Shown here: piece after piece, positions 28,760 to 55,785 of the stretch
Layout of the letters: every line of letters begins with the position of its first letter
Numbering within the stretch: position 1 is the first letter of the stretch
NCBI GenBank assembly: GCA_964504195.1
Contig: CAZDDI010000004.1
Coordinates: 23,328 to 87,327 of the forward strand
DNA length: 64,000 nt
DNA from: an uncultured Anaerolineales bacterium
GTDB taxonomy: Bacteria > Chloroflexota > Anaerolineae > B4-G1 > SLSP01
Reading direction: 5' to 3'
Translations under genes and position numbers: made by a program
The notes under the pieces: model-generated
Database searches by the model: none
Seen by the model: the letters and a program-made list of their open reading frames with translations, nothing else
What the model was told of the DNA's origin: nothing

Positions 28760-28788
28760 AGTGTTACCTCAGTGTACAGGCTTTTTAC

Positions 28789-28839
28789 TGCGTAATGCGT
28801 ACTGCGTAATCCGGAAAATTACGCAGTACGCATTACGAA
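28789..28839. repeat. Palindromic hairpin element CGTAATGCGTACTGCGTAAT-loop-ATTACGCAGTACGCATTACG (copy 1, between metF and metH)
   Basis: Identical element at 49291-49337. Confidence 0.6.
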
Positions 28840-28846
28840 TTACGTC

Positions 28847-40852: not shown

Positions 40853-40855
40853 TCC

Positions 40856-41494
40856 ATGAAGAAACGCTTTATCGCGATTGCTGGCAATATCGGGGCGGGG
40901 AAATCCACCCTCACCGCGTTGCTTAGCCAACGCCTAGGCTGGGAACCGTTCCTGGAGGGGGTCACAGACAACCCCTACCTGGCGGATTTCTACACCGATA
41001 TGGAACGGTGGAGCTTTCACTCGCAGGTGTTCTTCCTGGCACGCCGGTTATTACACCACCGCCAACTGTTGGAGCGACCCAACTCCGTCATCCAGGATCG
41101 CACAGTGTACGAGGATGCAGAAATTTTCGCCCGCAATCTTTACCTGCAAGGGGCACTGCAAGAGCGCGATTATCACACCTATCACGATCTCTATATTGCT
41201 GTAACCACTATCCTGCCGCCACCTGATCTGGTCATCTACCTACAGGCATCCGTCAGCAAGCTCTGCGAACGCATCCAACAACGGGGCCGCCCCTACGAGC
41301 GCCAAATCACAGAGGATTACCTAACGCGCCTGAACGGGCTATACGAGGATTGGTTCGAGCATTTCGCGCTATGTCCCATCCTCACCGTGCCTGCCGACCG
41401 GCTCGATTTCGTCTCCAACGGCGATCACCTTTCTCTAATTATCGAGAAAGTGTTAGAACGCTTGCAGGGCAAAGAACTCGTATCGTTCGATTGA
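40856..41494 (+). CDS. Deoxynucleoside kinase (dAK/dGK-like), second paralog
   Basis: GNIGAGKST P-loop, dNK fold motifs. Confidence 0.75.
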   Translation: MKKRFIAIAGNIGAGKSTLTALLSQRLGWEPFLEGVTDNPYLADFYTDMERWSFHSQVFFLARRLLHHRQLLERPNSVIQDRTVYEDAEIFARNLYLQGALQERDYHTYHDLYIAVTTILPPPDLVIYLQASVSKLCERIQQRGRPYERQITEDYLTRLNGLYEDWFEHFALCPILTVPADRLDFVSNGDHLSLIIEKVLERLQGKELVSFD

Positions 41495-41555
41495 CACCAA
41501 GCAGCTACAAGCAGCCTTCACAAAATACGGTTGACTGAGTTGAAGAGGAAAAAAC

Positions 41556-44246
41556 ATGCCAGACACGCCTAATCACGATGCACGTCCCACCAGGACGCCA
41601 AGCACACACAACTACACTACCCAATGGGTACGCGACAACCTGCCGGGGGCCGTGCTGGTGCTAAGTCTCTACTATGGCGGATTAGCCTTTAGCCACCAAT
41701 TCTTGTTACCTGCCCCCATCGCCCCCGCCGTGGCCCTGCTAGCGACGGCCACCGCAGCGCTCCTGCTGGTGCTCTGGCTCGCTCTGCGAAGCTACTGGCA
41801 CCCCCCCCTCCACCTGGTGTACCCCCTCACCGCTGGCATCGCCGGCCTGGCTTTGCTTAACAGCCTGATCCTCCTCCATCTCACTGGTGAGCCACAGCAA
41901 ACCACCAACCTCATGTTGATCGTCATCGGCGCTGGTTTCTTGTTCCTTTCCACCCGCTGGTTTGTACTGGTGCTGATCGCCACCTGCATCGGCTGGGGGC
42001 TGATTCTGTGGCAGTTGGCCCCACCCCTGGCAGCGTGGCGACACTTCGGCTTCGCGCTATTTGCGACGATGATTATCACCAGCATCGTACATCGCGCGCG
42101 TATTCGCATGGTGAGCAATTTGGAAGACTTGCGGCAACAAGAACTCCAGCAAACGCACGCACTCGAAAAGGCCCTCACTCTGACACAAAAAGCCCAGTGG
42201 GTGCAGGAGAACCTGACCGCGACAGCCCACGCGCTCGCCAGTACTCTCGATCTGGAACAGGTGCTCAAGCTGATGCTAACACACCTGGCCCAGACTGTAC
42301 CCTGCGATAACGTAACGGTCTATCTATTGGAAGGCGATCACCTCTATCCGCAGGCCTGGCACAGCACCCTCACCCAGTCTGTAGCCCCAGTAGCCCTCAC
42401 GGTCAGTAGCCCCACGCTGCTGGGACATGTGTTCCGGGCGCGCGCGCCGCTCGCGCTCAACGATGTCACCCAACACCCTCACTGGCACCCCCAAGAGGCC
42501 GAACTGCCCTTGCGCAGTTGGATTGGAATGCCGCTCATAGCGGCTGAAAGATCCGTGGGCCTGTTGACCCTGGGCAGTTGCCAGCTCCAGGCATACCAAG
42601 AACAGGATCTCCAGTGGGTACACGCCTTCGCCGATTACGCTGCCGCCGCCGTCCATAACGCAGCCCTGGCAACGCGCACGCGCAACACGCTCGAACGCCT
42701 GGCGTTCCTCTACGCGGCGGCGCGCACGCTGGCAACCACGCTCAACACCCAGGACATTCTGGAAATGCTCATGGATCTGCCCCACAAACGCTTCCATCCG
42801 GATGCTGTCTCAGTCACGACGGTTGAGCCAGACGGCACGCTCGTGTTTCGCGCCGCCTCTGGTGTATCCGCCGATCAGATCATTGGGATGCGGTTGCCGC
42901 CGGAAACGGGGGTGCTGGGCTGGGTGGCTACCCACGGGGAGCAACTCTGGATCCCCAACGTGCAGGAAGATGGCCGTTTTTACACGGGCGTGGATAGTAA
43001 GACCGGCTTTGTCACGCGCGCTATCTATGCTGTCCCCATCCGCGCCGGGCAAGAAACCATCGCTATCCTAGAGCTAATCAATCCCTCCGATGAAGTCAAC
43101 TTCGCAGATACCCAAGACCTGCTCACCGCCCTGGCAGCCCTGGCCGCGCCTGCCATCCGCAACACCCAGCTTTTCGAGCAGATTCGCCAGGCGGAAGAGC
43201 GCTACCAGCAGTTATTCGATCAAAACCTCGATCCCATCATTATCCTCAATCACAGCGGGAATATACTTGAGGCCAATCATGCCGCACAGCGCCTGCTCGA
43301 TCTACCGGATGACTGCCAACGCTGCGATGGCCTGCGTATCCTCAACCTCACACCAGAGCGGTTCGCGATCCTCAAGCAAGAGTTGAAAACGCAACCAGTA
43401 TTGAGCTGGGAAGATCAGTTCACCAATGGGCAACGCATGCAACGCACGTTCACAGTATACCTTTCGTGCCTGCAACACTACACCCCCGACCAGACCTACC
43501 TCTGGCTCGGCCACGACATCACCGACCGGGTGGCCCTGGAAACGACCCGCCAACAACTCGCCAACATGATCGTCCACGATCTGCGCAACCCGCTGAACAG
43601 TATCCTCAACGGGCTGGAATTGATCCACAACGCCTGGCGGGAGCATGACCTCACGCTGCCGATGGAACAGCTCCTCCAGATCAGCCTGCGCAATGCCCAC
43701 CGCATGGAGCGACTCATCGGCACCATTCTGGATACCGCACACTTGAGCTCCGGCGAAAAGCGGCTGACCGTAGAAAGCGTGGATTTGCGCGAACTAACCG
43801 CTGAAGCTACCGAAAGCGCACAACCCGCCGCTACCCAACGCCGCCAAACGCTCACCTGCGCCCTCCCGACCAGTATCCCCCTCACCCTGGGCGATGAAGA
43901 TGTGCTACGCCGGGTCATCGCCAACCTGCTCGATAATGCCATCAAGTTTACACCGCCCGGTGGTGCCATCCACATCACATTGGAGTATGATACCACCGAG
44001 TTCCACGTAAACGTGACCGATTCCGGCCCGGGCATTTCCCCAGAAGAACAAGCGCGCATCTTCGAACCGTTTGTGCGCGGCGATAGTGCGCTTACCAAGC
44101 GCATCACCGGTGCCGGGCTAGGGCTTGCTTTCTGCAAGCTTGCCGTCGAAGCCCACGGCGGACGCATCTGGGTGACGAGCACACCCGACGCTGGGGCGAC
44201 ATTCAGTATTGCGCTGCCCTATCGCCGCCCAGAGGCAATGGCATGA
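41556..44246 (+). CDS. Membrane-bound GAF/PAS sensor histidine kinase
   Basis: N-terminal TM block, GAF, PAS, H-box VHDLRNPL, HATPase_c (DNAIKFT, GAGLGLAF). Confidence 0.8.
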   Translation: MPDTPNHDARPTRTPSTHNYTTQWVRDNLPGAVLVLSLYYGGLAFSHQFLLPAPIAPAVALLATATAALLLVLWLALRSYWHPPLHLVYPLTAGIAGLALLNSLILLHLTGEPQQTTNLMLIVIGAGFLFLSTRWFVLVLIATCIGWGLILWQLAPPLAAWRHFGFALFATMIITSIVHRARIRMVSNLEDLRQQELQQTHALEKALTLTQKAQWVQENLTATAHALASTLDLEQVLKLMLTHLAQTVPCDNVTVYLLEGDHLYPQAWHSTLTQSVAPVALTVSSPTLLGHVFRARAPLALNDVTQHPHWHPQEAELPLRSWIGMPLIAAERSVGLLTLGSCQLQAYQEQDLQWVHAFADYAAAAVHNAALATRTRNTLERLAFLYAAARTLATTLNTQDILEMLMDLPHKRFHPDAVSVTTVEPDGTLVFRAASGVSADQIIGMRLPPETGVLGWVATHGEQLWIPNVQEDGRFYTGVDSKTGFVTRAIYAVPIRAGQETIAILELINPSDEVNFADTQDLLTALAALAAPAIRNTQLFEQIRQAEERYQQLFDQNLDPIIILNHSGNILEANHAAQRLLDLPDDCQRCDGLRILNLTPERFAILKQELKTQPVLSWEDQFTNGQRMQRTFTVYLSCLQHYTPDQTYLWLGHDITDRVALETTRQQLANMIVHDLRNPLNSILNGLELIHNAWREHDLTLPMEQLLQISLRNAHRMERLIGTILDTAHLSSGEKRLTVESVDLRELTAEATESAQPAATQRRQTLTCALPTSIPLTLGDEDVLRRVIANLLDNAIKFTPPGGAIHITLEYDTTEFHVNVTDSGPGISPEEQARIFEPFVRGDSALTKRITGAGLGLAFCKLAVEAHGGRIWVTSTPDAGATFSIALPYRRPEAMA

Positions 44247-46654: not shown

Positions 46655-47542
46655 CTAGCTCACCACCACCAACCACACAGTACACCACAGCGCATTGGAG
46701 ATGGCAATCGTCGCGTTATCGGTAGAGCGAGGTGAAATCAACTCCAGAATCGTGGAACTGAGTGAAATTATCAACGCCAGCCACAGGTAATTGACCGGCA
46801 ATTGCGCGCCGGAAATGTGCAACGCGAGGCTGATCAACGAGAACGCAAAGACCGCCCCCGTTCCCAACCAGGATTTCCGGTTGATTTCCCCTAGCCCTTT
46901 GACCTTGATGGTATGCTTGCCCCACGTTCCACCGATGATTTCCCCGGCGGCATCGCCGATAACCTGCGGGTAGTAGATGAAATTGATCAGGGGTAGAATC
47001 AGCAGCTGTTCATTGCCGGCCAGGGGTAGCATCACCCAAATCCCCAACGCTGAGACCACGATGTACTGCACGCACAACCCCAACAACGCCACGACCAGAT
47101 TAAGCCGCCCGTAGACTCCATCGCGGATGCGCGCCAATCCGCCATAGAACAGGCCACCCAATCCTAGCACGCGCTCAGAGCGATAGGCAATCAGCAAAAA
47201 CCCCAGGTTGATGAACGATTGGATGATGATCGTAGGAACGATGAGAAAGAGGTCTTTGATTACCAGTTGTGTAATCATGATATAGAGCATCCCGCTCAGA
47301 ACGTGATGCCCCTTGCGACAGAATGAATCCACCCGGCGGATGTGAACTTCAGGATACTTTGCCAGCAGCGCCTGGAGATCGAACTCCTTGCGCGTGAAGA
47401 AAATCTGTCGCCGCTCCGCATCACTCAGCCCTAGCCGCTTGAGCCAGAACCATTTGAGCAGCGCCATAGAACCCTGGCTGAAAACCTGCACCGTAGAGAG
47501 CAACAGCAGGTAAGGCGCCCATTGCAAGGGGATGAGGTTCAT
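46655..47542 (-). CDS. CTP-dependent polyprenol (dolichol/phytol) kinase-family membrane protein
   Basis: GDAAGEIIGG...GKHTIKVKGL...KSWLGTG cytidylyltransferase-family signature. Confidence 0.6.
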   Translation of the reverse strand: MNLIPLQWAPYLLLLSTVQVFSQGSMALLKWFWLKRLGLSDAERRQIFFTRKEFDLQALLAKYPEVHIRRVDSFCRKGHHVLSGMLYIMITQLVIKDLFLIVPTIIIQSFINLGFLLIAYRSERVLGLGGLFYGGLARIRDGVYGRLNLVVALLGLCVQYIVVSALGIWVMLPLAGNEQLLILPLINFIYYPQVIGDAAGEIIGGTWGKHTIKVKGLGEINRKSWLGTGAVFAFSLISLALHISGAQLPVNYLWLALIISLSSTILELISPRSTDNATIAISNALWCTVWLVVVS

Positions 47543-47560: not shown

Positions 47561-48316
47561 CTATGGCGCAAGAGTATGCAACATGAGATTGGGGATGGTT
47601 ACATGTTGATCATCATCGTGAAAAGTAAAAACTGATGCGCCTGGTTGCGCCGGTGGAAAGAGAAAAGTCCCATCCATCACAGTGAACTGCCCTTGATGTG
47701 CGGAACCACCTAGTTGTGCGGCACCGCCTGTCCCAATATGATCATACCGATGCCCTAAATTATCAATCAAATACATATTTCTGTTATATGTATCTGATTT
47801 TTTCCTGGCATCAGTTCCCGACAAGAAATTGACAGACCAGGTGACAGTAAACTCCATTTCACCAGATTCCCTGAGAATCACATATACCACGCACCAATTG
47901 ATATTGGCATGTGTGTCTGGGCCACTGATTTCGTAAGTGGCGCAAGCATCCTGCTGCGGATATGTTCCTGGCACTGCGGCGGATGGAGGTACCGCTGTAG
48001 GTGTGTGTGTCGCCATAGGTGTTGCTGTCCATACAGGTGTTGGAACCGGTGTGTTGGTAGGTGTTGCCGGCGGCACAGTGTTGGTAGGCGAGGGTGCTGG
48101 AGTATGCGTTGGCGCTGGCGTTATCGTGGCTGTTGCTGTAGCTGTTGGCAGTGGAGTGGAAGTCGCCGTAACGGTTGGTTCAGCCGTCGCGGTCAGTGTC
48201 GGCTGTGGTGTGTGCGTTTCAGTTGTAAGGCCGGTTGTGTTTGGTGTAGTACATGCTGCCAATAAAAAGACAAGCAAAATCCACAATAACTTCCCAGATT
48301 TCGGTGCTGAATACAT
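47561..48316 (-). CDS. Pro/Thr-rich secreted lipoprotein, C-terminal globular domain
   Basis: Lipobox LLAAC; long PT linker. Confidence 0.6.
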
Positions 48317-48537: not shown

Positions 48538-48569
48538 CGTGAACCTTTGCGCTTGCACGCGCATGTAAC
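48538..48569 (+). promoter_or_regulatory. ECF-type promoter motif GCGTGAAC-N16-GCATGTAACC upstream of sigma factor gene (autoregulatory)
   Basis: Identical motif/spacing at 54757-54790. Confidence 0.5.
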
Positions 48570-48590: not shown

Positions 48591-49295
48591 GTGGCGGCAT
48601 CACTCGAACACGGATCGCAACCACTTCTCCAACCGCTTTTGCGGCCGCTTCTGCGACGCTGGCTGGCAGCATTGCTCACGCACTGCCTCGACCTGGCCTG
48701 TCGCCTGGCCTGCTTCGTCACCGGCGATGCTGAGGCGCACCGGCAGGGCATCCCCACCGCAGAGCTCATCCGCCGCTTCCAGCACGGGCAACCCCGCGCC
48801 TTCGAACTGCTCTACGACCGCTACAAGGACTACGTCTACCGGGTCGCTTTCTTCATCACCCGCAACGTCTGCGAGGCGGAAGACGCCGTGCAGGAGACCT
48901 TCATGGATGTACACAAGGCGTTGCCCAACTACGATGTGGCCGGCCCGGCGCGCTTCGAGACCTGGCTGTACCGGGTCGCCGTGAACCGCTGCAAGATGCG
49001 GCTGCGGCGCAAACCCGTCCCCTCGGCGGAATGGGACGAGATCGAAGAGCAGTTGGAGCGCCTCCCGCTGCCCTCGGAAGAAGAACCCGAAAGCGCCGCG
49101 CTGCGCAAGGAACGCGCCCTGGCGCTTTGGCAATCGGTAGATGCGCTGCCGCAGGAGCACCGGGATGTAATCATCCTGCGCTACCAGCAAGACCTTTCGT
49201 ATGACGAAATCGCCCAGGTATTGGGTGTTTCACTGGGAACGGTGAAATCCCGACTCTTCAACGCCCATCGCAAACTTAAAGGGGCATTAACGTAA
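48591..49295 (+). CDS. ECF (sigma-70 family, sigma-24-like) RNA polymerase sigma factor
   Basis: Region 2 (YRVAFFITRN...EDAVQETF) and region 4 (LSYDEIAQVLGVSLGTVKSRL); GTG start. Confidence 0.8.
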   Translation: MAASLEHGSQPLLQPLLRPLLRRWLAALLTHCLDLACRLACFVTGDAEAHRQGIPTAELIRRFQHGQPRAFELLYDRYKDYVYRVAFFITRNVCEAEDAVQETFMDVHKALPNYDVAGPARFETWLYRVAVNRCKMRLRRKPVPSAEWDEIEEQLERLPLPSEEEPESAALRKERALALWQSVDALPQEHRDVIILRYQQDLSYDEIAQVLGVSLGTVKSRLFNAHRKLKGALT

Positions 49296-49337
49296 TGCGT
49301 ACTGCGTAATCCGGAATTTTACGCAGTACGCATTACG
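49291..49337. repeat. Palindromic hairpin element (copy 2) overlapping the sigma stop codon, between sigma and anti-sigma genes
   Basis: cgtaatgcgtactgcgtaat-ccggaatt-ttacgcagtacgcattacg. Confidence 0.6.
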
Positions 49338-49363: not shown

Positions 49364-52300
49364 ATGACACCAGAAACCACCCATAGCACCACTGACCTGC
49401 TCGCCTATCTCGATGGCGAATTGAGCGAGCGCGACCAGGCGCGCGTTACCGCGCACCTGGCAACGTGTGCCGCCTGCGCCGCCGAGCTGGCCCAGCTGCG
49501 CGCGCTGCGCGGCGACCTGCGCGCCACGCTCGATGTCGCGCTCGCGCCGGTGCAGCTCTCCCGCGTCGCCGATGCCCGCATCCGTGAGGCGCTGCGCCAC
49601 CGCAACGAGCGCCCCGCCTGGCTGCTCACCTTCTGGCGGCAGCGCGGCCTCACCGTGCAAGCCCTCATGGCCGTGCTGGTGTTGGCCTTCAGCCTCAACC
49701 TCTTCCCCACGCTCCAGGCCGGGCCGGCGCAGCCCAGCACTGCCACCGAAACCGTCGTCCTGAACCAGGAACGCCTGATCCCCGGCAGCGAGGCCGCCGT
49801 GCGCGTCATCGTCCGCTCCGCTGAGAACGCCCTGCCCTTGCTCGGCGCACAGATCACCGTGCTGCTCGCGCCGCGCGGCGGCGCAGCGCGCCCCGTCTAC
49901 ACCGGCGCGACCGGCGCGGGCGGCACTGCCGACATCGCCTTCACCGTCCCCGCCGACCTTACCGGCGCGGCCAACCTCATCATCGAAACGCGCACCCCGG
50001 CGGGCCAGGAGCGCATCGTGCGCCCCATCACCATCGCCCGCAGCTATCGCCTCTACCTCAGCAGCGACAAGCCCGCCTACCGCCCCGGCCAATCCCTCTA
50101 CGTCCGCGCCCTCGCGCTCGACGCGCTGGATTACCTCCCGCCCACCGGCGCGCAAGTCACGTTCACCTTGCTAGGACCAGCGCGCCAGCAGCTCTGGCAG
50201 ACCCAGGCTGCCGTGTCCGAGTTCGGCGCGGCCGATGCCGTTACCGACCTGCCCCTCACCGCGCCCACCGGGACGTACACCCTGCGCGTTACGCTCGGCG
50301 ATACCATCTCCGAGCGCACCCTCACCGTCGGCCAATATCGCCTGCCCGCCTACCAGCTCACCCTCACCCCCGACCGCGCCTTCTACCAGCCCGGCGACCG
50401 CGTGACCGGCGTACTAGAAGCGGCCTACTTCTTCGGGAAGCCGGTGGCTGCCGCGCAAGTCGTACTACACGGCGTCGCCGCCGGCAACCAGGCCCTGGAT
50501 TTGCGCGGCGTCACCGATGCGCAAGGCCGGTTCGCCTTCGCTTTCAATTTGCCCCTTACTTTTGGCGATCCGGAGCCGCGCACGCCGCAGCCCTTCACGT
50601 TGGAAGCGCGCGTCACCGATGTCGTCGGGCAGGTGGAGGGGGTGCGGCACACGCTGCCCGTCGCCGCGCAAGGCGTGCTGCTGCGCGCCCTGCCGGAGGG
50701 CGGCGTGCTCCGCCCCGGCGTCGAGAACACACTCTTCATCCTCGCCGCGCATCCCGACGGCAGCCCCGCCCCGGCAACGCTGCTCGTGACCCTTGACCGC
50801 ACCGCGTACACTCTACGCACCGACGCCTACGGCCTCGCCATGCTGACCTTCACCCCCGCGCAGGCCACTACGCCCATCGCCATCACTGCCCAGGCTGATA
50901 GCGGCGCGACCGGCCAGACGCAGCTCACGCTCACCGGCGATACGGCCCAGCAGCAGCTCCTCCTCCGCGCCGAGCGCGCACTCTACCGCGCTGGCGAAAC
51001 CCTGCGCGTAGAGGCGCTCACCGCCGGGCTGGATGCGTTGCCCGATCCCACGCTCTACCTTGACATCGCGCGCGCCGGACAGACCGTTGCCCTGCTCTCC
51101 GCGCCGCTCCAGGGTGGGCGGGCCGTGTTCGCGCTCGATCTCGAACCGGGGTGGGTGGGTGCGCTTGAGCTGCGCGCCTACGCCCTGCTTCCCGATGGCC
51201 GCCGGGTGACAGATACCCGCCTGATCGTCGTAGACCCACCCAGCGGCGTGGATGTCGCCATCACCGCCGACGCGCCCCAGTACCGCCCCGGCGCCACCGC
51301 CGCCCTCACCGTGCAAACCACGCTCGCCGCCACCGGCGTCCCCGTGCAGGCCGCGCTGGGGCTGGTCGCCGTGGATGAATCTGTCTACGCCCTGGATACC
51401 CTGCCGCCGGGCTTCGCGCGCGCGTACCTGCTGCTGGAAAAAGACCTGTTCACCCGCGCCGGTAGCGTTCCCGGCTTCGATGCCGCCGCGCTCCGCGCCA
51501 GCGAAGACCTCGCTGCGCGCGCGGCATGGGCCGAGCTGCCCGGCGCAGCAGTGCTGACCACGTCACGGATTACCTCGCCCGCGCCCCCTGCACCGCCGCT
51601 CTCCCCCGCGCAAGTGCTGGCGCTTACCCTCACGCTCGCGCTACTGGCGATGCTGCTTACCATTGGCATAATCCGGGGATTGCAACCGGCAGGTGTGTTG
51701 CCCCACGCACTGCGCCGCGTCAGCGTGGGCTTTGTGATACTCACTCTGGCCGGATGGCTGGTGTTTGGCCTGCTCGCCGGGGTGCTCTGGCTGTTGCAAG
51801 CCTGGCTGGGGGGGCTAACGCTCCTGAGCCTGCTGGGGACGCTGCTCGCGCTTCCCTGGCTGTGGCTCGTTATCGCAGGCTGGCGGCGCGGGGATGCACG
51901 CTTGCAAATCACTACCGGCCTCCTGGCGGCTTATCTGGTGTTGCTGATAGGGCTGGTGTGGGCGACGGGGCAAAACGTCCCCATCAGCGCACTGCTCATC
52001 GCGCTGGTCACGCTCAGCTATCTGGCAATCATTGCGACAGTGGCGCTGCTGGGCCAGGGCCTCATCCTCGAAGGTCAACGCGGGCTGGGCTGGCTCACCA
52101 CCGCCTTCGCGCTGCTACTCATCGTGGCAGCGTTGGGCTTGCCGCTGATCTCCGGCCTGGCTTCCGACCTGAGCCGCACGCTGGGACATCCCGCGCTCTA
52201 CGCCGGGCCGGTGGGATGGATTACTGGCTGTGGCGCACCGGCCACCTACGCGCCAGTAGCGACGGAAGCCCCAGCCACCCAAACCCCGCAAGCGACCACA

Positions 52301-52867
52301 GAAGCGCCTGTGATTGTGCCTACGACAGAGGCCACCCCACCGCCGGCCCCTACCGCTACACCGCTCGCGCCGCCCGCCGAACCCTGGCCGCTGCGGCAGC
52401 TCTTCCCGGAAACGCTCTACTGGCAGCCGCAGGCGCTCACGGATGAGCATGGGCAGCTTGCGTTGACCCTGCCGCTGGCGGATAACATCACCACCTGGCG
52501 CTTCACCGCGCTGGCCTCCACCCGCTCCGGCGACCTGGGCGCAGCGACCTACGATATCGTTGTCTTCCAGGATTTCTTCATCGAACTAGCCCTGCCGGAC
52601 GTTATCCGCGCAGGCGCACCACTCACTGTGACGGCCACGCTCTACAACTTCCTACCGGAAGCGCAGAACGTGCAGCTGACCCCCACCCCCGCCGATTGGT
52701 ACACCTTGCTCGCTGCGCCGGAAGCGTTGCGCATTGAAGCGCAAGGCGTGACCACCGCCACACTGCGCATCCGCCCAGAGCAGGGCGGCACATACACATT
52801 GCAAATACACGCCGCTGGCGCACGCATGTCCGATGGTATCGCCGTTCCGGTCACAGTGGAACCCTGA
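49364..52867 (+). CDS. Anti-sigma factor (zf-HC2, TM) fused to alpha-2-macroglobulin-like MG domains, with an internal polytopic TM block
   Basis: HLATCAACAAEL; MG2-like DKPAYRPGQSLYVRA, DRAFYQPGDRVTG; 5-7 TM helices at aa ~740-1010; C-terminal A2M motif LFPETLYWQP. Confidence 0.65.
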   Translation: MTPETTHSTTDLLAYLDGELSERDQARVTAHLATCAACAAELAQLRALRGDLRATLDVALAPVQLSRVADARIREALRHRNERPAWLLTFWRQRGLTVQALMAVLVLAFSLNLFPTLQAGPAQPSTATETVVLNQERLIPGSEAAVRVIVRSAENALPLLGAQITVLLAPRGGAARPVYTGATGAGGTADIAFTVPADLTGAANLIIETRTPAGQERIVRPITIARSYRLYLSSDKPAYRPGQSLYVRALALDALDYLPPTGAQVTFTLLGPARQQLWQTQAAVSEFGAADAVTDLPLTAPTGTYTLRVTLGDTISERTLTVGQYRLPAYQLTLTPDRAFYQPGDRVTGVLEAAYFFGKPVAAAQVVLHGVAAGNQALDLRGVTDAQGRFAFAFNLPLTFGDPEPRTPQPFTLEARVTDVVGQVEGVRHTLPVAAQGVLLRALPEGGVLRPGVENTLFILAAHPDGSPAPATLLVTLDRTAYTLRTDAYGLAMLTFTPAQATTPIAITAQADSGATGQTQLTLTGDTAQQQLLLRAERALYRAGETLRVEALTAGLDALPDPTLYLDIARAGQTVALLSAPLQGGRAVFALDLEPGWVGALELRAYALLPDGRRVTDTRLIVVDPPSGVDVAITADAPQYRPGATAALTVQTTLAATGVPVQAALGLVAVDESVYALDTLPPGFARAYLLLEKDLFTRAGSVPGFDAAALRASEDLAARAAWAELPGAAVLTTSRITSPAPPAPPLSPAQVLALTLTLALLAMLLTIGIIRGLQPAGVLPHALRRVSVGFVILTLAGWLVFGLLAGVLWLLQAWLGGLTLLSLLGTLLALPWLWLVIAGWRRGDARLQITTGLLAAYLVLLIGLVWATGQNVPISALLIALVTLSYLAIIATVALLGQGLILEGQRGLGWLTTAFALLLIVAALGLPLISGLASDLSRTLGHPALYAGPVGWITGCGAPATYAPVATEAPATQTPQATTEAPVIVPTTEATPPPAPTATPLAPPAEPWPLRQLFPETLYWQPQALTDEHGQLALTLPLADNITTWRFTALASTRSGDLGAATYDIVVFQDFFIELALPDVIRAGAPLTVTATLYNFLPEAQNVQLTPTPADWYTLLAAPEALRIEAQGVTTATLRIRPEQGGTYTLQIHAAGARMSDGIAVPVTVEP

Positions 52868-53103: not shown

Positions 53104-53484
53104 ATGCCCGCTCATACGCCCGTCCCATTGCAAACACGGCTAAAACGCTGGTTGATTTCGGGGTTGGCCTTCATCACCAGCGTAGCCTGCACCGTGCTGG
53201 GCATTGATCTTGGTCCGCCCACGCCGATGTGCTACGAGGCGCCGGCCTACACCCCCACGCCACAAATCCTATGTTATGAGCCGACCATACCCCCACCCAC
53301 ACCGGTCAGAGCTACTCACAAGACCGCGCTTCCCAATTTGCCTAAAGCGACCCAAATCGAATGCTACATCATCTCACCCGAAATTTTGCTCACGCCCACG
53401 CCTGAACCGGAGAGCCGCGACGCGCTGCGCGAGCGGCTGCTGGCGGAAGGCCGCTTCCCGGCGGATGTGGCGCGGGAGTTGTGA
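53104..53484 (+). CDS. Membrane-anchored Pro/Thr-rich protein with three Cys-Tyr motifs (CYE, CYE, CYI); putative substrate of the downstream rSAM enzyme
   Basis: RBS GAGGAG; TM helix WLISGLAFITSVACTVLGI; repeats MCYEAPAYTPTP / LCYEPTIPPPTP / ECYIISPE. Confidence 0.55.
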   Translation: MPAHTPVPLQTRLKRWLISGLAFITSVACTVLGIDLGPPTPMCYEAPAYTPTPQILCYEPTIPPPTPVRATHKTALPNLPKATQIECYIISPEILLTPTPEPESRDALRERLLAEGRFPADVAREL

Positions 53485-53486
53485 GG

Positions 53487-54602
53487 ATGGCGTTCAAACG
53501 CACCCTGGCTAATTGGAAGCGCCGCCTGGATGCGGAACAGGCGCGACTTACCGGGCGCTGGTCGGCGGAGCTCGGCCCGCACTTCATCCTGGAACTCACG
53601 CCGCGCTGCAATCAGGACTGCCGCTATTGCTACAATGTGTGGAAGCTGCGCCCGGAGCTCGCCGCAGCCCCGCTCGATGCCGCTGGCTGGTGTGCGCTCA
53701 TCGCCAAATTGCAGGCCGAGACCGGTTGCACCCGCGTCACATTCTCCGGCGGGGAGCCGCTGCTGCATCCCGGTTTCCGTGAGATTCTGGCCTTTTGCGC
53801 CCAACGTGGCCTGGAAAGCACCCTCATCTCCAACGGCGGGCTGCTGGATGACGCCATGTTGGCTTTGTGCATGGCGCAGGGCGTGCGGATGTTCGAACTG
53901 ACGCTGCTGGGGCGGGATGCCGCCACGCATGACGCGCTCACGCGGACGCCGGGTAGCTGGGAGCGCGCGCTGCAAGCCATGACGCGCCTCTACAAAACCG
54001 GGGCGACCTGGTGTGGGGTCTTTGTCGCCACGCGGGACAACATCCACCAAACCCGTGAGACGCTGGAAATGATGATCGCGCTGGGCGCCAGCGCACTCAT
54101 GTTCAACCGGTTCAATCCCGGCGGCGAAGGCTCACGGCATCTGGACTTGATGCCTACGGGGGCGCAGGTGCAGACGGCGCTGGGCGTGGTGGACGAACTC
54201 GCGGCAACCTACGGGCTGCTGGCTTCGGCCTCGATTCCCATCATGCCATGTCTCATCAACACTACGCCCTATACGCACGTTTACTTTGGGTTTTGCGCGG
54301 CGGGACGCGAGAACGCCTATCCCACGCTCGGCCCGGATGGGCGCGTGCGTCCGTGCAATCACAGCGCCACGGTGCTGGGCGATTTTCGCGCACAACCGAT
54401 GGCAAAAATTCTGGCCTCACCCGCGCTCAAAGCGTTTACCGCAGCCGCGCCGGACATCTGCAAGCCCTGCCCCGGCCTGGAAACGTGCCGCGCCGGATGT
54501 CGCGCCGCAGCGGAAGTCTGTTTCGGCTCAGTGGCACAGCCAGAACCCTGGCTGCGGGAGAACTTCGATCCCGGCAGGCTTTACAGCGCGGGGAACCGCT
54601 GA
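53487..54602 (+). CDS. Radical SAM / SPASM-domain peptide-modifying enzyme
   Basis: CNQDCRYC (Cx3Cx2C); C-terminal CKPCPGLETCRAGC (Cx2Cx5Cx3C) plus upstream Cys; overlaps upstream ORF (alternative GTG at 53481). Confidence 0.8.
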   Translation: MAFKRTLANWKRRLDAEQARLTGRWSAELGPHFILELTPRCNQDCRYCYNVWKLRPELAAAPLDAAGWCALIAKLQAETGCTRVTFSGGEPLLHPGFREILAFCAQRGLESTLISNGGLLDDAMLALCMAQGVRMFELTLLGRDAATHDALTRTPGSWERALQAMTRLYKTGATWCGVFVATRDNIHQTRETLEMMIALGASALMFNRFNPGGEGSRHLDLMPTGAQVQTALGVVDELAATYGLLASASIPIMPCLINTTPYTHVYFGFCAAGRENAYPTLGPDGRVRPCNHSATVLGDFRAQPMAKILASPALKAFTAAAPDICKPCPGLETCRAGCRAAAEVCFGSVAQPEPWLRENFDPGRLYSAGNR

Positions 54603-54756: not shown

Positions 54757-54790
54757 GCGTGAACTTTTCCCCTCCTCCGTGCATGTAACC
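54757..54790 (+). promoter_or_regulatory. Second copy of ECF-type promoter motif GCGTGAAC-N16-GCATGTAACC upstream of DUF4349 gene
   Basis: Same spacing as 48538-48569; ~30 nt upstream of RBS AGGAGGAG. Confidence 0.5.
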
Positions 54791-54819: not shown

Positions 54820-55785
54820 ATGCATCGTATATGGCTACTCAGTATATTGGCTTTGGTGATCTTGCTATCCGCTTGCGGGCAAGCCACACCCCCACCCGTC
54901 CGCGCAACGATAGCACCGGCAACGCAAGAGCCTTATGTTGCTGCGACAATGGAAGCACCCCCAGAGATACCGGCTACTCCCATGCCGACGCCCGTTGGTG
55001 ATCCGGCGCTCCAACAGGCTCGCAACGCCGGAAGCACCCTGCCAGATACCGACTACCGCGCCAACCGGCTCATCATCAAGAACGCCGAAATGATACTGCT
55101 GGTGGAAGATACCGATAATGCCATTGACCGGTTGACCCAGATTGCAGGCGATACGGGTGGCTACATTCTCAGCTCACGGGTCTGGTATCGGGAGTGGCTC
55201 GGCACAAACTACAAGTACGCCACGGTTACGCTCAGCGTTCCATCGGGACAGTTCGAGGTAGCGATGCGCCGGTTGCGCGTCCTAGCACTCCGCGTGCTCG
55301 ACGAAAACGCCTCCGGGCAGGATGTTACGGATGAGTATGTAGACCTGGAATCGCGCCTGCGCAACCTCCAGGCTACCCGTGATCGCATCCGCAGCTTCCT
55401 GGAACAAGCCGAAAATGTAGAAGAAGCGCTGGAGGTCAACCGGCAACTGGGGGCAGTGGAGGCCGACATCGAGCAAGTGCAGGGGCGGATGAACTATCTC
55501 TTCGACCGGGCGGCCTACTCCACCATCACCGTCTCGCTGGAACCGGATTTACCAGAACCGCCGCCCACACCGACGCCGACGCCCACCCCTACACCAACGC
55601 CTATACCACCCTGGTCGCCCGCACCCACAGCGGAAGCAGCCGGGAAGACGCTAACCCTGATCTTGCAAGTATTGGTCGAAATCGGTATCTGGCTCGGTAT
55701 CGTGATGTTGCCGCTGGTCGGGCCGCCGCTGCTCATCATCTGGGGCATCTGGCGCATCTATCAGCGCAAGTCGCGCCGCGCGTAA
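54820..55785 (+). CDS. DUF4349-domain lipoprotein with (PT)n linker and C-terminal TM anchor
   Basis: Lipobox LLSAC; PTPTPTPTPTPTPIP; DUF4349 is often found with anti-sigma factors. Confidence 0.6.
   Translation: MHRIWLLSILALVILLSACGQATPPPVRATIAPATQEPYVAATMEAPPEIPATPMPTPVGDPALQQARNAGSTLPDTDYRANRLIIKNAEMILLVEDTDNAIDRLTQIAGDTGGYILSSRVWYREWLGTNYKYATVTLSVPSGQFEVAMRRLRVLALRVLDENASGQDVTDEYVDLESRLRNLQATRDRIRSFLEQAENVEEALEVNRQLGAVEADIEQVQGRMNYLFDRAAYSTITVSLEPDLPEPPPTPTPTPTPTPTPIPPWSPAPTAEAAGKTLTLILQVLVEIGIWLGIVMLPLVGPPLLIIWGIWRIYQRKSRRA

What the first reader, a model, noticed from the sequence alone, without database searches (positions are those of the whole stretch)
49364..52867. Anti-sigma factor fused to alpha-2-macroglobulin-like domains with an embedded multi-TM block
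The gene follows an ECF sigma factor and starts with a textbook zf-HC2 anti-sigma N-terminus (HLATCAACAAEL) and a single TM helix. The ~1000-aa extracytoplasmic part contains several A2M MG2-like repeats (DKPAYRPGQSLYVRA, DRAFYQPGDRVTGV, ERALYRAGETLRVEA, DAPQYRPGATAALTV) and a C-terminal A2M signature (LFPETLYWQP, resembling the FPETWLW motif of A2M/C3). These are separated by a cluster of 5-7 hydrophobic helices. Bacterial A2Ms trap proteases, so an A2M-like bait domain wired to an anti-sigma factor suggests an envelope sensor that reports attack by proteases, phage or predators to an ECF sigma. That combination is unusual.
Basis: partly seen in the sequence, partly recalled or inferred. Interest (0 to 1): 0.65.

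Follow-up and report, generated by a model that had tools for sequence, protein, structure and literature searches.

The report
Anti-sigma factor with membrane-embedded macroglobulin sensor
A Chloroflexota gene fuses a zinc-finger anti-sigma domain to a shortened alpha-2-macroglobulin whose protease "bait" site is replaced by a unique six-helix membrane block, a conserved and undescribed design that may let the cell sense protease attack on its envelope.

Summary
ORF 49364-52867 is one 1167-aa gene. It reads: zf-HC2 anti-sigma domain, TM1, macroglobulin domains MG1-MG6a, six TM helices, MG6b-MG7. An ECF sigma gene sits directly upstream.

New findings:
- The six-helix block lies exactly where A2Ms carry their bait region. 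It has no Pfam or PDB match. In 1.84 billion representative proteins it occurs essentially only in this family.
- The window protein lacks CUB, TED/thioester and MG8. Sister anti-sigma forms of about 1700 aa keep a TED with CFEQ.
- The most conserved stretch ends in a lipobox-like [LI]-T-G-C, whose Cys956 is one of only three Cys. A variable, disordered linker follows, directly before FPETLYW.
- All 24 GTDB loci that carry the anti-sigma domain have the orthologous sigma upstream. None of 56 loci without it do.
- A conserved promoter, GAAC-N16-GCATGTAAC, precedes the sigma gene and a DUF4349 lipoprotein gene.

The architecture is solid. The mechanism is inferred: protease or ectodomain damage, then regulated proteolysis, then sigma release. 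I found no paper describing this. Verdict: new variant of known kinds, interest about 0.68.

The parts
48541..48569 (+). ECF-type promoter motif GAACCTTT-N12-GCATGTAAC upstream of the sigma gene (probable autoregulation)
   Evidence: The motif GAACyTTT-N12-yGCATGTAAC is present upstream of the orthologous sigma gene in 24 of 25 loci. The window holds a perfect match here.
48591..49295 (+). ECF sigma factor (234 aa) with an N-terminal extension of about 55 aa
   Evidence: Pfam Sigma70_r2 4e-19 and Sigma70_r4_2 5e-16. TIGR02937 sigma70-ECF 1e-33. Closest solved relatives are AlgU, RpoE and SigW. Orthologues at E 1e-62 to 1e-89 lie upstream of every anti-sigma-bearing homologue.
49364..52867 (+). 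Whole gene: anti-sigma factor fused to a membrane-embedded, TED-less A2M-like protein (1167 aa)
49364..49609 (+). Cytoplasmic class I (zinc-finger, ZAS-type) anti-sigma domain, aa 1-82, with H7, H31, C35 and C38
   Evidence: zf-HC2 1e-9. NCBIfam anti-sigma models match weakly. H7, H31, C35 and C38 are each at least 90% conserved in 92 homologues. AF2 predicts four helices: 9-16, 22-34, 36-63 and 67-81.
49619..49717 (+). TM1 (aa 86-118), N-in/C-out
   Evidence: Hydropathy peak. K+R averages 4.3 on the N side and 0.6 on the C side across the family.
49745..51376 (+). Extracytoplasmic macroglobulin domains MG1 to MG6a (aa 128-671)
   Evidence: Pfam MG2, MG3, MG4 and A2M_BRD. AF2 pLDDT is above 90. 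Foldseek against the PDB gives C3, CD109, A2ML1, C4, C5, A2M and ECAM at E 1e-35 to 1e-27. phmmer against PDB sequences gives C3 at 4e-20.
51377..51577 (+). Helical part of the bait-region domain plus one strand (aa 672-738). Residues 681-696 are low-confidence.
   Evidence: AF2 secondary structure and pLDDT. Conserved residues P682, F684, Y688, Q714, A720 and W722.
51605..52147 (+). Family-specific six-helix transmembrane block (aa 748-928) inserted at the bait-region position
   Evidence: Hydropathy. AF2 model with pLDDT 89 and pTM 0.86. Alternating K+R counts in the loops. No Pfam family. No PDB fold match, best E 0.34. A profile search of 1.84e9 representatives gives 85 hits; all that are strong and long enough to judge lie at the same position in A2M-like proteins, and the short ones look like fragments.
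52148..52231 (+). Most conserved segment of the protein (aa 929-956), ending in the lipobox-like W-I-T-G-C956
   Evidence: Column counts among 92 sequences: position -3 L/M/V/I in 88, -2 T/S/A in 83, -1 G in 87, Cys in 86. Lowest entropy of all regions. C956 is one of only three Cys in the protein.
52232..52396 (+). Disordered, hypervariable A/P/E/T/V-rich linker (aa 957-1011) directly before FPETLYW; the bait-like tether
   Evidence: pLDDT below 50. High entropy, with length 33-147 aa across homologues. Non-anti-sigma thioester relatives have an equally variable stretch at this place.
52397..52864 (+). MG6b and MG7 (aa 1012-1167). The protein ends where CUB/TED would begin.
   Evidence: Pfam A2M 1017-1105, 7e-19. 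Aligns to A2M, A2ML1, C4 and C5 just after their bait/ANA regions. pLDDT above 90.
54761..54789 (+). Second perfect copy of the ECF promoter motif (GAACTTTT-N12-GCATGTAAC)
   Evidence: These are the only two matches in 64 kb, both with 0 mismatches. The same motif precedes the orthologous gene in L004, L018, L020 and L046.
54820..55785 (+). DUF4349 lipoprotein (321 aa, lipobox LLSAC, C-terminal TM segments); probable regulon member
   Evidence: Pfam DUF4349 3e-46. Orthologues lie immediately downstream of the anti-sigma gene in L004, L018 and L046, nearby in L020, and partially in L006.

Best explanation
Shown by computation:
- The gene encodes a membrane-bound class I (zinc-finger) anti-sigma factor for the ECF sigma encoded just upstream.
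- Its cytoplasmic N-terminus (aa 1-82) is the sigma-binding module, and TM1 takes the chain out of the cell.
- The sensor part is a shortened alpha-2-macroglobulin, MG1-MG7, without CUB, the thioester domain or MG8.
- Both ends of the A2M bait-region position are stitched into the membrane by a family-specific six-helix block. After it come a highly conserved lipobox-like motif (ITGC956), a variable disordered linker of about 55 aa, and the FPETLYW start of MG6b.

Inferred:
- In the resting state the bulky macroglobulin ring shields the anti-sigma factor and sigma stays sequestered.
- An extracellular protease, or other damage that cuts the exposed bait-like linker or ectodomain, destabilises the ring.
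- The stump then becomes a substrate for regulated intramembrane proteolysis (a site-2 protease acting on TM1), as for RseA, MucA and RsiW.
- Released sigma transcribes its own operon from GAAC-N16-GCATGTAAC. This replenishes the consumable sensor. It also transcribes the DUF4349 lipoprotein gene.
- The lineage began as a thioester A2M fused to the anti-sigma domain and later lost the trap domain. This suggests that sensing, not trapping, is the retained function.
For: - Architecture and fold.
- Topology is N-in with both ends of the six-TM block outside, from hydropathy and the AF2 model. K+R counts alternate 3.75 / 0.24 / 3.16 / 0.64 / 1.70 in successive loops.
- The TM block and linker lie between Pfam A2M_BRD (ends at 677) and A2M (starts at 1017). 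Human A2M aligns from its residue 730 onward to query residue 1009 onward.
- The linker is disordered and hypervariable, as bait regions are.
- Sigma coupling is strict: 24 of 24 loci with the anti-sigma domain have the orthologous sigma, and 0 of 56 loci without it do.
- The promoter motif is conserved in 24 of 25 loci. It occurs twice in the window, the second copy before the DUF4349 gene, and it recurs before that gene in other genomes.
- The closest solved relatives of the sigma are AlgU, RpoE and SigW. By established knowledge all three are controlled by regulated proteolysis of their anti-sigma factors.
- Long sister forms carry zf-HC2 plus TED (7.7e-39), CFEQ and A2M_recep. They form the sister clade of the short forms.
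Against: - No experiment or tool here shows sigma binding, proteolysis or a response to proteases.
- The window protein has no thioester domain, so the classical A2M spring mechanism cannot operate as such.
- The linker is rich in Pro, Thr and Ala, like ordinary lipoprotein tethers in this genome (47561..48316 and 54820..55785). It could be a tether rather than a bait.
- TM1 has low confidence in the full-length model (pLDDT 51-70), so no coupling path from ectodomain to TM1 is visible.
- No site-1 or site-2 protease gene is conserved next to the locus.
Confidence: 0.5

Rival explanations
1. The A2M-like ring is only a scaffold or shield, and proteases are not the signal. The real input would be membrane, lipid or cell-wall stress, or an unknown ligand. 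It would be sensed by the conserved six-helix block or the conserved post-TM segment and passed to TM1 and the anti-sigma domain within the membrane.
For: - The TM block and especially aa 929-956 are highly conserved, with the lowest entropy in the protein.
- The trap domain (TED) has been lost.
- The probable regulon member is an envelope lipoprotein of unknown function, DUF4349.
- The block has no similarity to any known fold, so a sensory role cannot be excluded.
Against: - The same TM block is present in non-signalling thioester A2Ms that have no anti-sigma domain. It is therefore primarily an A2M feature, not a signalling invention.
- About 900 residues of conserved MG1-MG7 ring are retained, which is costly for a mere spacer.
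- TM1 is not confidently packed against the block.
Confidence: 0.3
2. The precursor is processed at the internal lipobox. Lgt lipidates C956 and Lsp cuts before it. This gives two chains: an anti-sigma chain (anti-sigma domain, TM1, MG1-6a, six TMs) and a lipoprotein chain (tether, MG6b, MG7). They re-associate through a two-chain MG6, as in complement C3 beta/alpha. Loss of the lipoprotein chain would be the activating event.
For: - The lipobox consensus [LMVI][TSA]G-C is kept in 86-88 of 92 homologues.
- C956 is the only Cys outside the zinc finger.
- It is followed by the same kind of Pro/Thr/Ala-rich tether as the two canonical lipoproteins next door.
- The motif is confined almost entirely to the clade bearing the anti-sigma domain.
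- By established knowledge of the C3 structure, MG6 built from two chains has a precedent in C3, C4 and C5.
Against: - The Cys lies about 24 residues after the end of the last TM helix, not directly at the end of an h-region as in canonical lipoprotein signal peptides.
- The site is internal, after seven TM helices, and I found no precedent for that.
- The conserved motif extends well beyond a lipobox (GNPxLYAGPxGW), which suggests another or an additional role.
Confidence: 0.25
3. Artefact: two genes joined by an undetected frameshift, or generic Ig-like repeats mistaken for A2M.
For: One MAG homologue (L027) has the gene split into two ORFs. A 306-aa alternative-frame ORF overlaps the TM block.
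Against: - More than 100 full-length homologues have the same order of parts.
- Pfam A2M-specific models score above their cut-offs.
- Foldseek matches whole A2M/C3 chains over about 1100 columns.
- The alternative frame is compositional noise.
- The L027 split is at residue ~650, not at a domain seam shared by others.
Confidence: 0.01

Closest known systems
RsiW / RseA / MucA-type single-pass anti-sigma factors of RpoE/SigW-like ECF sigmas (class I ASD, regulated intramembrane proteolysis)
   Same: N-terminal cytoplasmic anti-sigma domain with HxxxCxxC, followed by one TM. The gene lies directly downstream of an autoregulated ECF sigma whose closest solved relatives are AlgU, RpoE and SigW.
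   Different: The extracytoplasmic part is about 1050 aa instead of about 100. It is an A2M-like MG1-MG7 ring and re-enters the membrane six more times. No site-1 or site-2 protease link has been shown.
RsiV (anti-sigma V) and RsiP: anti-sigma factors that directly sense an attacking agent, with site-1 cleavage by signal peptidase (PMC4183432, PMC5014341, PMC6066255, PMC8844934)
   Same: The concept is an anti-sigma ectodomain acting as a receptor for a hostile enzyme or antibiotic. A signal-peptidase-type recognition element is embedded in the anti-sigma factor. Here this is a lipobox-like motif, which would be a signal peptidase II site.
   Different: The folds are unrelated. In RsiV the cleavage site follows TM1, whereas here the candidate site follows TM7. 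The ligand here is unknown.
Type I bacterial alpha-2-macroglobulins (E. coli ECAM/YfhM, Salmonella SaA2M; PDB 5a42, 4u48)
   Same: MG-domain ring, A2M_BRD, the FPETxxW start of MG6b, and membrane attachment. Long relatives of the window protein also carry a TED with CxEQ and an MG8/MG10 domain.
   Different: ECAM is an N-terminal lipoprotein with a soluble bait region. This family has an N-terminal TM helix plus six TM helices inside the bait region. The window protein lacks CUB, TED and MG8 and carries an anti-sigma domain.
Type II bacterial A2M, MagD of Pseudomonas aeruginosa, with inner-membrane partners MagA, MagB and MagF (PMC3735191, PMC5764988)
   Same: An A2M homologue without a thioester that works at the cytoplasmic membrane together with membrane components.
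   Different: MagD keeps a TED-like domain and is a separate soluble chain held by partner proteins. Here the membrane part is fused into the chain and there is a transcription-factor link. No sequence relation of the TM block to any Pfam family was detected.
Complement C3/C4/C5 and CD109 (eukaryotic A2M family)
   Same: These are the best structural matches. In C3, C4 and C5 the MG6 domain is built from two chain segments separated by a processed linker. CD109 is lipid-anchored (GPI) to the membrane.
   Different: There are no TM helices in their linker or bait regions. They have TED and CUB domains and no signalling to a sigma factor.

Membership tests
Alpha-2-macroglobulin / C3 superfamily | Series of macroglobulin (MG) beta-sandwich domains forming the MG1-MG6 ring plus MG7 | tested here: met
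   Pfam MG2, A2M_BRD and A2M score above their cut-offs. Foldseek gives E 1e-35 to 1e-27 against C3, CD109, A2ML1, A2M and ECAM over about 1100 columns. phmmer gives 4e-20 to C3.
Alpha-2-macroglobulin / C3 superfamily | Exposed, variable bait (or ANA/linker) region splitting MG6, immediately before the FPETW motif | tested here: inconclusive
   The position is occupied by a six-TM block plus a disordered, hypervariable linker of 33-147 aa before FPETLYW. Whether proteases cut the linker is untested.
Alpha-2-macroglobulin / C3 superfamily | Thioester domain (TED) with CxEQ, CUB domain and C-terminal MG8/receptor-binding domain | tested here: not met
   The window protein has no TED, CUB or A2M_recep hit and no CxEQ, and it ends after MG7. 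These features are present in sister anti-sigma forms, e.g. P0071 with TED 7.7e-39, CFEQ at 1234 and A2M_recep 3.9e-13.
Class I (ZAS-type) membrane anti-sigma factors | N-terminal anti-sigma domain with the HxxxCxxC zinc motif and an upstream His or Cys ligand | tested here: met
   zf-HC2 1e-9. H7, H31, C35 and C38 are at least 90% conserved. AF2 predicts four helices.
Class I (ZAS-type) membrane anti-sigma factors | Single TM helix after the anti-sigma domain, with the domain in the cytoplasm | tested here: met
   TM1 spans aa 86-118. Positive-inside counts are 4.3 versus 0.6.
Class I (ZAS-type) membrane anti-sigma factors | Encoded next to, and co-varying with, a cognate ECF sigma gene | tested here: met
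   The sigma gene lies 68 nt upstream. 24 of 24 loci with the anti-sigma domain have the orthologous sigma, against 0 of 56 loci without it.
Class I (ZAS-type) membrane anti-sigma factors | Physically binds and inhibits the sigma, and is released by a signal | not testable with these tools
   Needs two-hybrid, pull-down or reporter assays.
ECF sigma factors (group 4 sigma-70) | Regions 2 and 4 only, and an autoregulated promoter of the GAAC / CGT-like type | tested here: met
   Sigma70_r2 and r4_2. TIGR02937 1e-33. A conserved GAAC-N16-GCATGTAAC motif lies upstream in 24 of 25 orthologous loci. No NCBIfam equivalog cut-off was reached, so no named subgroup can be assigned.
Bacterial lipoproteins (Lgt/Lsp substrates) | Lipobox [LVI][ASTVI][GAS]C | tested here: met
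   I-T-G-C956 in the window protein. Family columns are L/M/V/I in 88, T/S/A in 83, G in 87 and C in 86 of 92.
Bacterial lipoproteins (Lgt/Lsp substrates) | Lipobox at the C-terminal end of an N-terminal signal peptide (n-region, h-region, then lipobox directly) | tested here: not met
   The motif is internal, after seven TM helices. It lies about 24 residues beyond the last TM helix, which ends at about 928-932.
Bacterial lipoproteins (Lgt/Lsp substrates) | Cys is diacylglycerol-modified and the chain is cleaved by signal peptidase II | not testable with these tools
   Needs lipid labelling, globomycin treatment and mass spectrometry.

The most novel reading that the evidence does not exclude
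The protein is a self-splitting, two-chain protease alarm. An internal lipobox after the seventh TM helix would be used by Lgt and Lsp to cut the precursor. This gives a polytopic anti-sigma chain and a lipid-tethered MG6b-MG7 chain that completes the macroglobulin ring non-covalently, as C3 does with its beta and alpha chains. A foreign protease that severs the hypervariable tether frees this keystone piece. The ring opens, the anti-sigma chain is degraded, and the ECF sigma switches on an envelope response. This would be a bacterial signalling use of the complement/A2M bait principle. It would also be the first internal lipoprotein-processing site in a polytopic membrane protein.
Probability: 0.2. 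Interest if true: 0.88.

Novelty: new variant of a known kind. Interest (0 to 1): 0.68.

Why it matters
ECF sigma/anti-sigma pairs are among the most abundant bacterial signalling systems, yet the input signal is unknown for most of them. Here the sensor domain comes from the one protein family whose defining job is to detect and react to cleavage by foreign proteases. That gives a concrete, testable hypothesis for the signal.

For the A2M/complement field, this family shows an arrangement that has not been described. The bait region is threaded six times through the membrane by a domain with no known relatives. Both thioester-bearing and trap-less versions exist, and a lone conserved lipobox-like cysteine sits before the variable linker. 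If the mechanism holds, the bait-cleavage logic of innate immunity proteins would also have been used for transcriptional signalling in Chloroflexota.

The conserved promoter motif also gives a handle for mapping the regulon in any of these genomes.

Tried and rejected
- Frameshift or two-gene artefact: rejected, because full-length homologues exist and the alternative frame is junk.
- Pfam identity for the TM block: 24 members scanned at E<=5 gave only scattered noise, the best being 7TMR-DISM_7TM in 3 of 24 at 0.05.
- Internal 3+3 duplication of the TM block: hhalign probability 1.9%.
- TM block in other protein contexts: a profile search of 1.84e9 representatives gave only A2M-like proteins or fragments. 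The one giant hit, P0192, is a nebulin-like repeat protein matching 'RGCGWI' by chance.
- Thioester in the window protein: absent. My first regex also missed CFEQ in the long forms, which I corrected.
- Conserved neighbours of the paralogues without the anti-sigma domain (e.g. a PBP1C-like partner as in E. coli): none found by all-against-all clustering of locus ORFs.
- Anti-phage defence annotation: no PADLOC hit for sigma, anti-sigma or DUF4349.
- Literature: no paper combines anti-sigma factors with macroglobulin. The ECF reclassification paper (PMC7826278) does not mention A2M, MG2 or Chloroflexi in its main text, and its supplements are not held. 'Internal lipobox' gave no hits.
- Terminator and sigma-70 promoter scans around the operon gave nothing decisive.
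- Coordinates of the AF2 models could not be read, so contacts between TM1 and the six-TM block could not be measured.

Full report
**1.

Window 49364..52867 (+) is one open reading frame of 1167 codons. Pfam models specific to the A2M family score above their curated cut-offs:
- zf-HC2, aa 13-39, 1e-9
- MG2, aa 229-314, 2e-22
- A2M_BRD, aa 536-677, 3e-13
- A2M (PF00207), aa 1017-1105, 7e-19
- MG3 and MG4 give weaker hits.

The ORF 68 nt upstream (48591..49295) is an ECF sigma with Sigma70_r2 and r4_2 and TIGR02937 at 1e-33. The hits are A2M signatures, not generic Ig/Big domains. The gene is not two genes: more than 100 homologues of 1143-1240 aa align over 99-100% of the length at 39-68% identity. 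A 306-codon ORF in another frame over the TM region is Arg/Ala/Gly-rich out-of-frame noise typical of 70% GC DNA.

**2. Anatomy and topology**

Hydropathy finds one TM helix at aa 86-118 and a block of hydrophobic helices at 748-932. An AF2 model of the block alone has pLDDT 89 and pTM 0.86. It resolves six helices: 748-773, 779-815, 817-842, 845-869, 876-902 and 906-928.

Across 92 homologues the K+R content of successive loops alternates 3.75 / 0.24 / 3.16 / 0.64 / 1.70. It is 4.3 before TM1 and 0.6 after it. The positive-inside rule therefore gives this topology:
- anti-sigma domain in the cytoplasm
- MG1-MG6a outside
- six helices, with both ends of the block outside
- MG6b-MG7 outside

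This is what a split MG6 domain requires. The full-length AF2 model has mean pLDDT 84.9, with more than 90 over nearly all MG domains. It is disordered only at the termini of segments, at 681-696 and at 957-1011. Foldseek aligns about 1100 columns of the model to C3, CD109, A2ML1, C4, C5, human A2M, TEP1, ECAM and Salmonella A2M, with E 1e-35 to 1e-27 and TM about 0.45-0.5. Sequence search of the PDB gives the same family.

The TM block and the following linker lie between Pfam A2M_BRD (ends at 677) and A2M (starts at 1017). Human A2M aligns to the query only from query residue 1009 onward (chain residue 730), which is directly after its bait region. So the insertion occupies the bait-region position. 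The protein stops after MG7. There is no CUB, no TED, no CxEQ and no MG8.

**3. A conserved family, and where the window protein sits in it**

The large protein search returned 435 relatives (E ≤ 0.001), of which the best 120 were listed. The named ones are all from Anaerolineae, Chloroflexi or Thermoflexales MAGs and are annotated only as 'MG2 domain-containing', 'zf-HC2 domain-containing', 'anti-sigma factor RsiW' or 'hypothetical'. Almost every full-length member has the 1+6 TM pattern, HxxxCxxC and FPET.

The best 80 are nearly all Chloroflexota: Anaerolineae, Thermoflexales, Ardenticatenales, Caldilineaceae and Chloroflexia. One is from Vulcanimicrobiota.

These 80 loci split cleanly:
- 24 loci encode a protein that begins with the anti-sigma domain. 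All 24 have an orthologue of the window's sigma upstream (E 1e-62 to 1e-89). It is adjacent in 22 and 2.3 kb away in L014 and L015.
- 56 loci encode proteins with only an N-terminal TM anchor. None has this sigma; one (L048) has an unrelated ECF sigma ORF overlapping the gene's 5' end (E 4e-13). They carry the same six-helix block.
- Many of these 56 are 1600-1780 aa long with a CFEQ thioester motif about 215 aa after FPET. One example is a MAG assigned to Anaerolinea thermophila (L073).

Anti-sigma-bearing long forms also exist. P0071 has zf-HC2, MG2, BRD, A2M, TED_complement (7.7e-39), CFEQ at 1234 and A2M_recep.

A crude NJ tree of the shared core places the anti-sigma forms in one clade, apart from a small second group (P0112, P0120). 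Inside the main clade, long thioester forms are sister to short TED-less forms, and the window protein is one of the latter. The simplest history has three steps:
1. Chloroflexota A2Ms acquired the membrane block.
2. One lineage gained the anti-sigma domain.
3. A sub-lineage then lost CUB, TED and MG8.

**4. The six-helix block is unique**

- No Pfam model matches any of 24 diverse members.
- The confident model has no PDB fold match (best E 0.34).
- Its two halves are unrelated to each other.
- A profile search of 1.84 billion cluster representatives finds only 85 proteins. Every hit that is strong and long enough to judge has the block at the same position of an A2M-like protein; the short ones inspected are contig-truncated fragments, and P0192 is a chance repeat hit.

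**5. A lipobox-like cysteine and a bait-like linker**

The most conserved stretch of the whole protein is aa 929-956, between the last TM helix and the linker. It has the lowest entropy and is 79-86% identical in homologues that are about 50% identical overall. It reads S-D-L-T-R-x-L-G-N-P-A-L-Y-A-G-P-x-G-W-[LI]-T-G-C. The last four columns fit the lipoprotein lipobox: L/M/V/I in 88, T/S/A in 83, G in 87 and C in 86 of 92 sequences.

C956 is one of only three cysteines in the protein. The others are the zinc ligands C35 and C38. C956 is followed by an A/P/E/T/V-rich stretch that is disordered (pLDDT below 50), variable in sequence, and 33-147 aa long (median 56) across the family. Two ordinary lipoproteins flanking the operon (47561..48316 on the minus strand, and 54820..55785) show the same pattern of lipobox Cys followed by a Pro/Thr-rich tether.

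The motif is characteristic of the anti-sigma clade and a few close relatives. Most forms without the anti-sigma domain lack the Cys but keep a variable linker before the invariant PR(L/V)RQ(Y/F)FPET.

Against a canonical lipoprotein signal, the Cys is internal and lies about 24 residues beyond the last helix. I therefore treat lipidation and cleavage as a hypothesis with probability about 0.2-0.25, not a finding.

**6. Regulatory wiring**

Upstream of the sigma gene in 24 of 25 orthologous loci lies GAACyTTT-N12-yGCATGTAAC with fixed spacing. This layout is typical of ECF promoters. The window has exactly two matches at up to three mismatches, and both are perfect:
- 48541-48569, before the sigma gene
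- 54761-54789, 31 nt before a DUF4349 lipoprotein gene (Pfam 3e-46)

The orthologous DUF4349 gene follows the anti-sigma gene in L004, L018, L046 and L020 and carries the motif there too. Control loci without the anti-sigma domain have 4 relaxed matches in 626 kb. So the module is an autoregulated sigma/anti-sigma operon with at least one further envelope target. The closest solved relatives of the sigma are AlgU, RpoE and SigW. By established knowledge, their anti-sigma factors MucA, RseA and RsiW are removed by site-1 and site-2 proteolysis.

**7. Mechanism**

Shown: architecture, topology, conservation, sigma coupling and the promoter.

Inferred (confidence about 0.5):
- The macroglobulin ring shields the anti-sigma factor.
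- Proteolytic attack on the exposed variable linker or ectodomain destabilises the ring.
- The stump is cleared by intramembrane proteolysis.
- Sigma is released and re-expresses the sensor together with DUF4349.

The argument rests on the ancestry from thioester A2Ms, on the retention of a bait-like hypervariable segment at the bait position, and on loss of the trap domain with retention of the ring.

The main rival (about 0.3) is that the ring is only a scaffold and the signal is sensed in the membrane. A further, non-exclusive hypothesis is processing at the internal lipobox into two chains that rebuild MG6 as in C3. A loose parallel is that signal peptidases act as site-1 proteases for RsiV and RsiP (PMC4183432, PMC6066255, PMC8844934). 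Nothing links the locus to phage defence.

**8. Comparison with known systems, and novelty**

As an anti-sigma factor, it meets the testable criteria: zinc motif, single TM and conserved sigma partner. As an A2M, it meets the MG-ring criterion but fails the TED/thioester/MG8 criteria, so it is A2M-like rather than a functional A2M. The bait criterion is inconclusive.

Known bacterial A2Ms are N-terminal lipoproteins (ECAM, SaA2M) or soluble chains held by membrane partners (MagD; PMC3735191, PMC5764988). None has TM helices in the bait region or a link to a sigma factor.

Full-text searches found no paper connecting anti-sigma factors and macroglobulins. The ECF reclassification paper does not mention them in its main text. 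Databases hold the sequences only under generic names. I rate this a new variant of known kinds, an undescribed sensor architecture restricted mainly to Chloroflexota. Interest is 0.68.

Noticed in passing
window 49293-49335 and 28786-28842: A perfect 17-bp inverted repeat (TAATGCGTACTGCGTAA / TTACGCAGTACGCATTA) sits between the sigma stop codon and the anti-sigma start codon. As RNA it folds at -33.9 kcal/mol with z -6.5. The same palindrome occurs at 28.8 kb, so it looks like a REP-like repeated element. It might affect the sigma to anti-sigma expression ratio. It is not conserved in other loci, where the two genes abut.
   Followed up: partly
window 53104-53484 and 53481-54602: A 126-aa ORF with no Pfam hit carries repeated Cys-Tyr motifs (CYEAP, CYEPT, CYIIS). 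It is followed by a radical SAM/SPASM enzyme. The pair recurs in L021 and in L039, where five tandem paralogues of the small ORF precede the enzyme. This looks like a RiPP precursor-plus-maturase cassette inserted between the anti-sigma gene and the DUF4349 gene. The PADLOC pVip hits (1e-17) cover only the radical SAM core.
   Followed up: partly
window 48591-48755 (sigma aa 1-55): The sigma has an N-terminal extension of about 55 aa. In orthologues paired with short anti-sigma forms it contains a conserved segment (..VARxLFALTGxSRAAE..) just before region 2. Orthologues paired with long thioester forms (L011, L013, L042) start directly at M-T-L/I-S/P-T-D-E-L-I.
   Followed up: partly
loci L073, L031, L036 and others (non-window): Chloroflexota also encode many A2M homologues without an anti-sigma domain. 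They have an N-terminal TM anchor and the same six-TM block in the bait region. Many have a TED and a CFEQ thioester, including a MAG assigned to Anaerolinea thermophila. One MAG (JBHIET01) carries both an anti-sigma form (L005) and a plain short form (L047). Polytopic thioester A2Ms appear not to have been described.
   Followed up: partly
P0112, P0120 (non-window): A second, small group of zf-HC2-bearing A2M-like proteins lacks the lipobox-like Cys. It falls outside the main anti-sigma clade in the NJ tree. This may be an independent fusion or a tree artefact.
   Followed up: no
L027 5956-9550 (non-window): In one MAG the orthologous gene is split into two overlapping ORFs at about residue 650. 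This is probably an assembly frameshift or a pseudogene.
   Followed up: no
window 47561-48316 (-) and 46655-47542 (-): Divergently upstream of the sigma gene lie a 251-aa lipoprotein with a long Thr/Pro-rich tether and a 295-aa polytopic membrane protein. Neither has a Pfam hit, and neither is conserved next to the module in other genomes.
   Followed up: partly
window 38168-44246: Two large GAF-domain histidine kinases (894 and 896 aa) flank a deoxynucleoside kinase gene upstream of the region. GC content varies strongly along the window (0.50-0.70), and the anti-sigma gene is among the most GC-rich segments.
   Followed up: no
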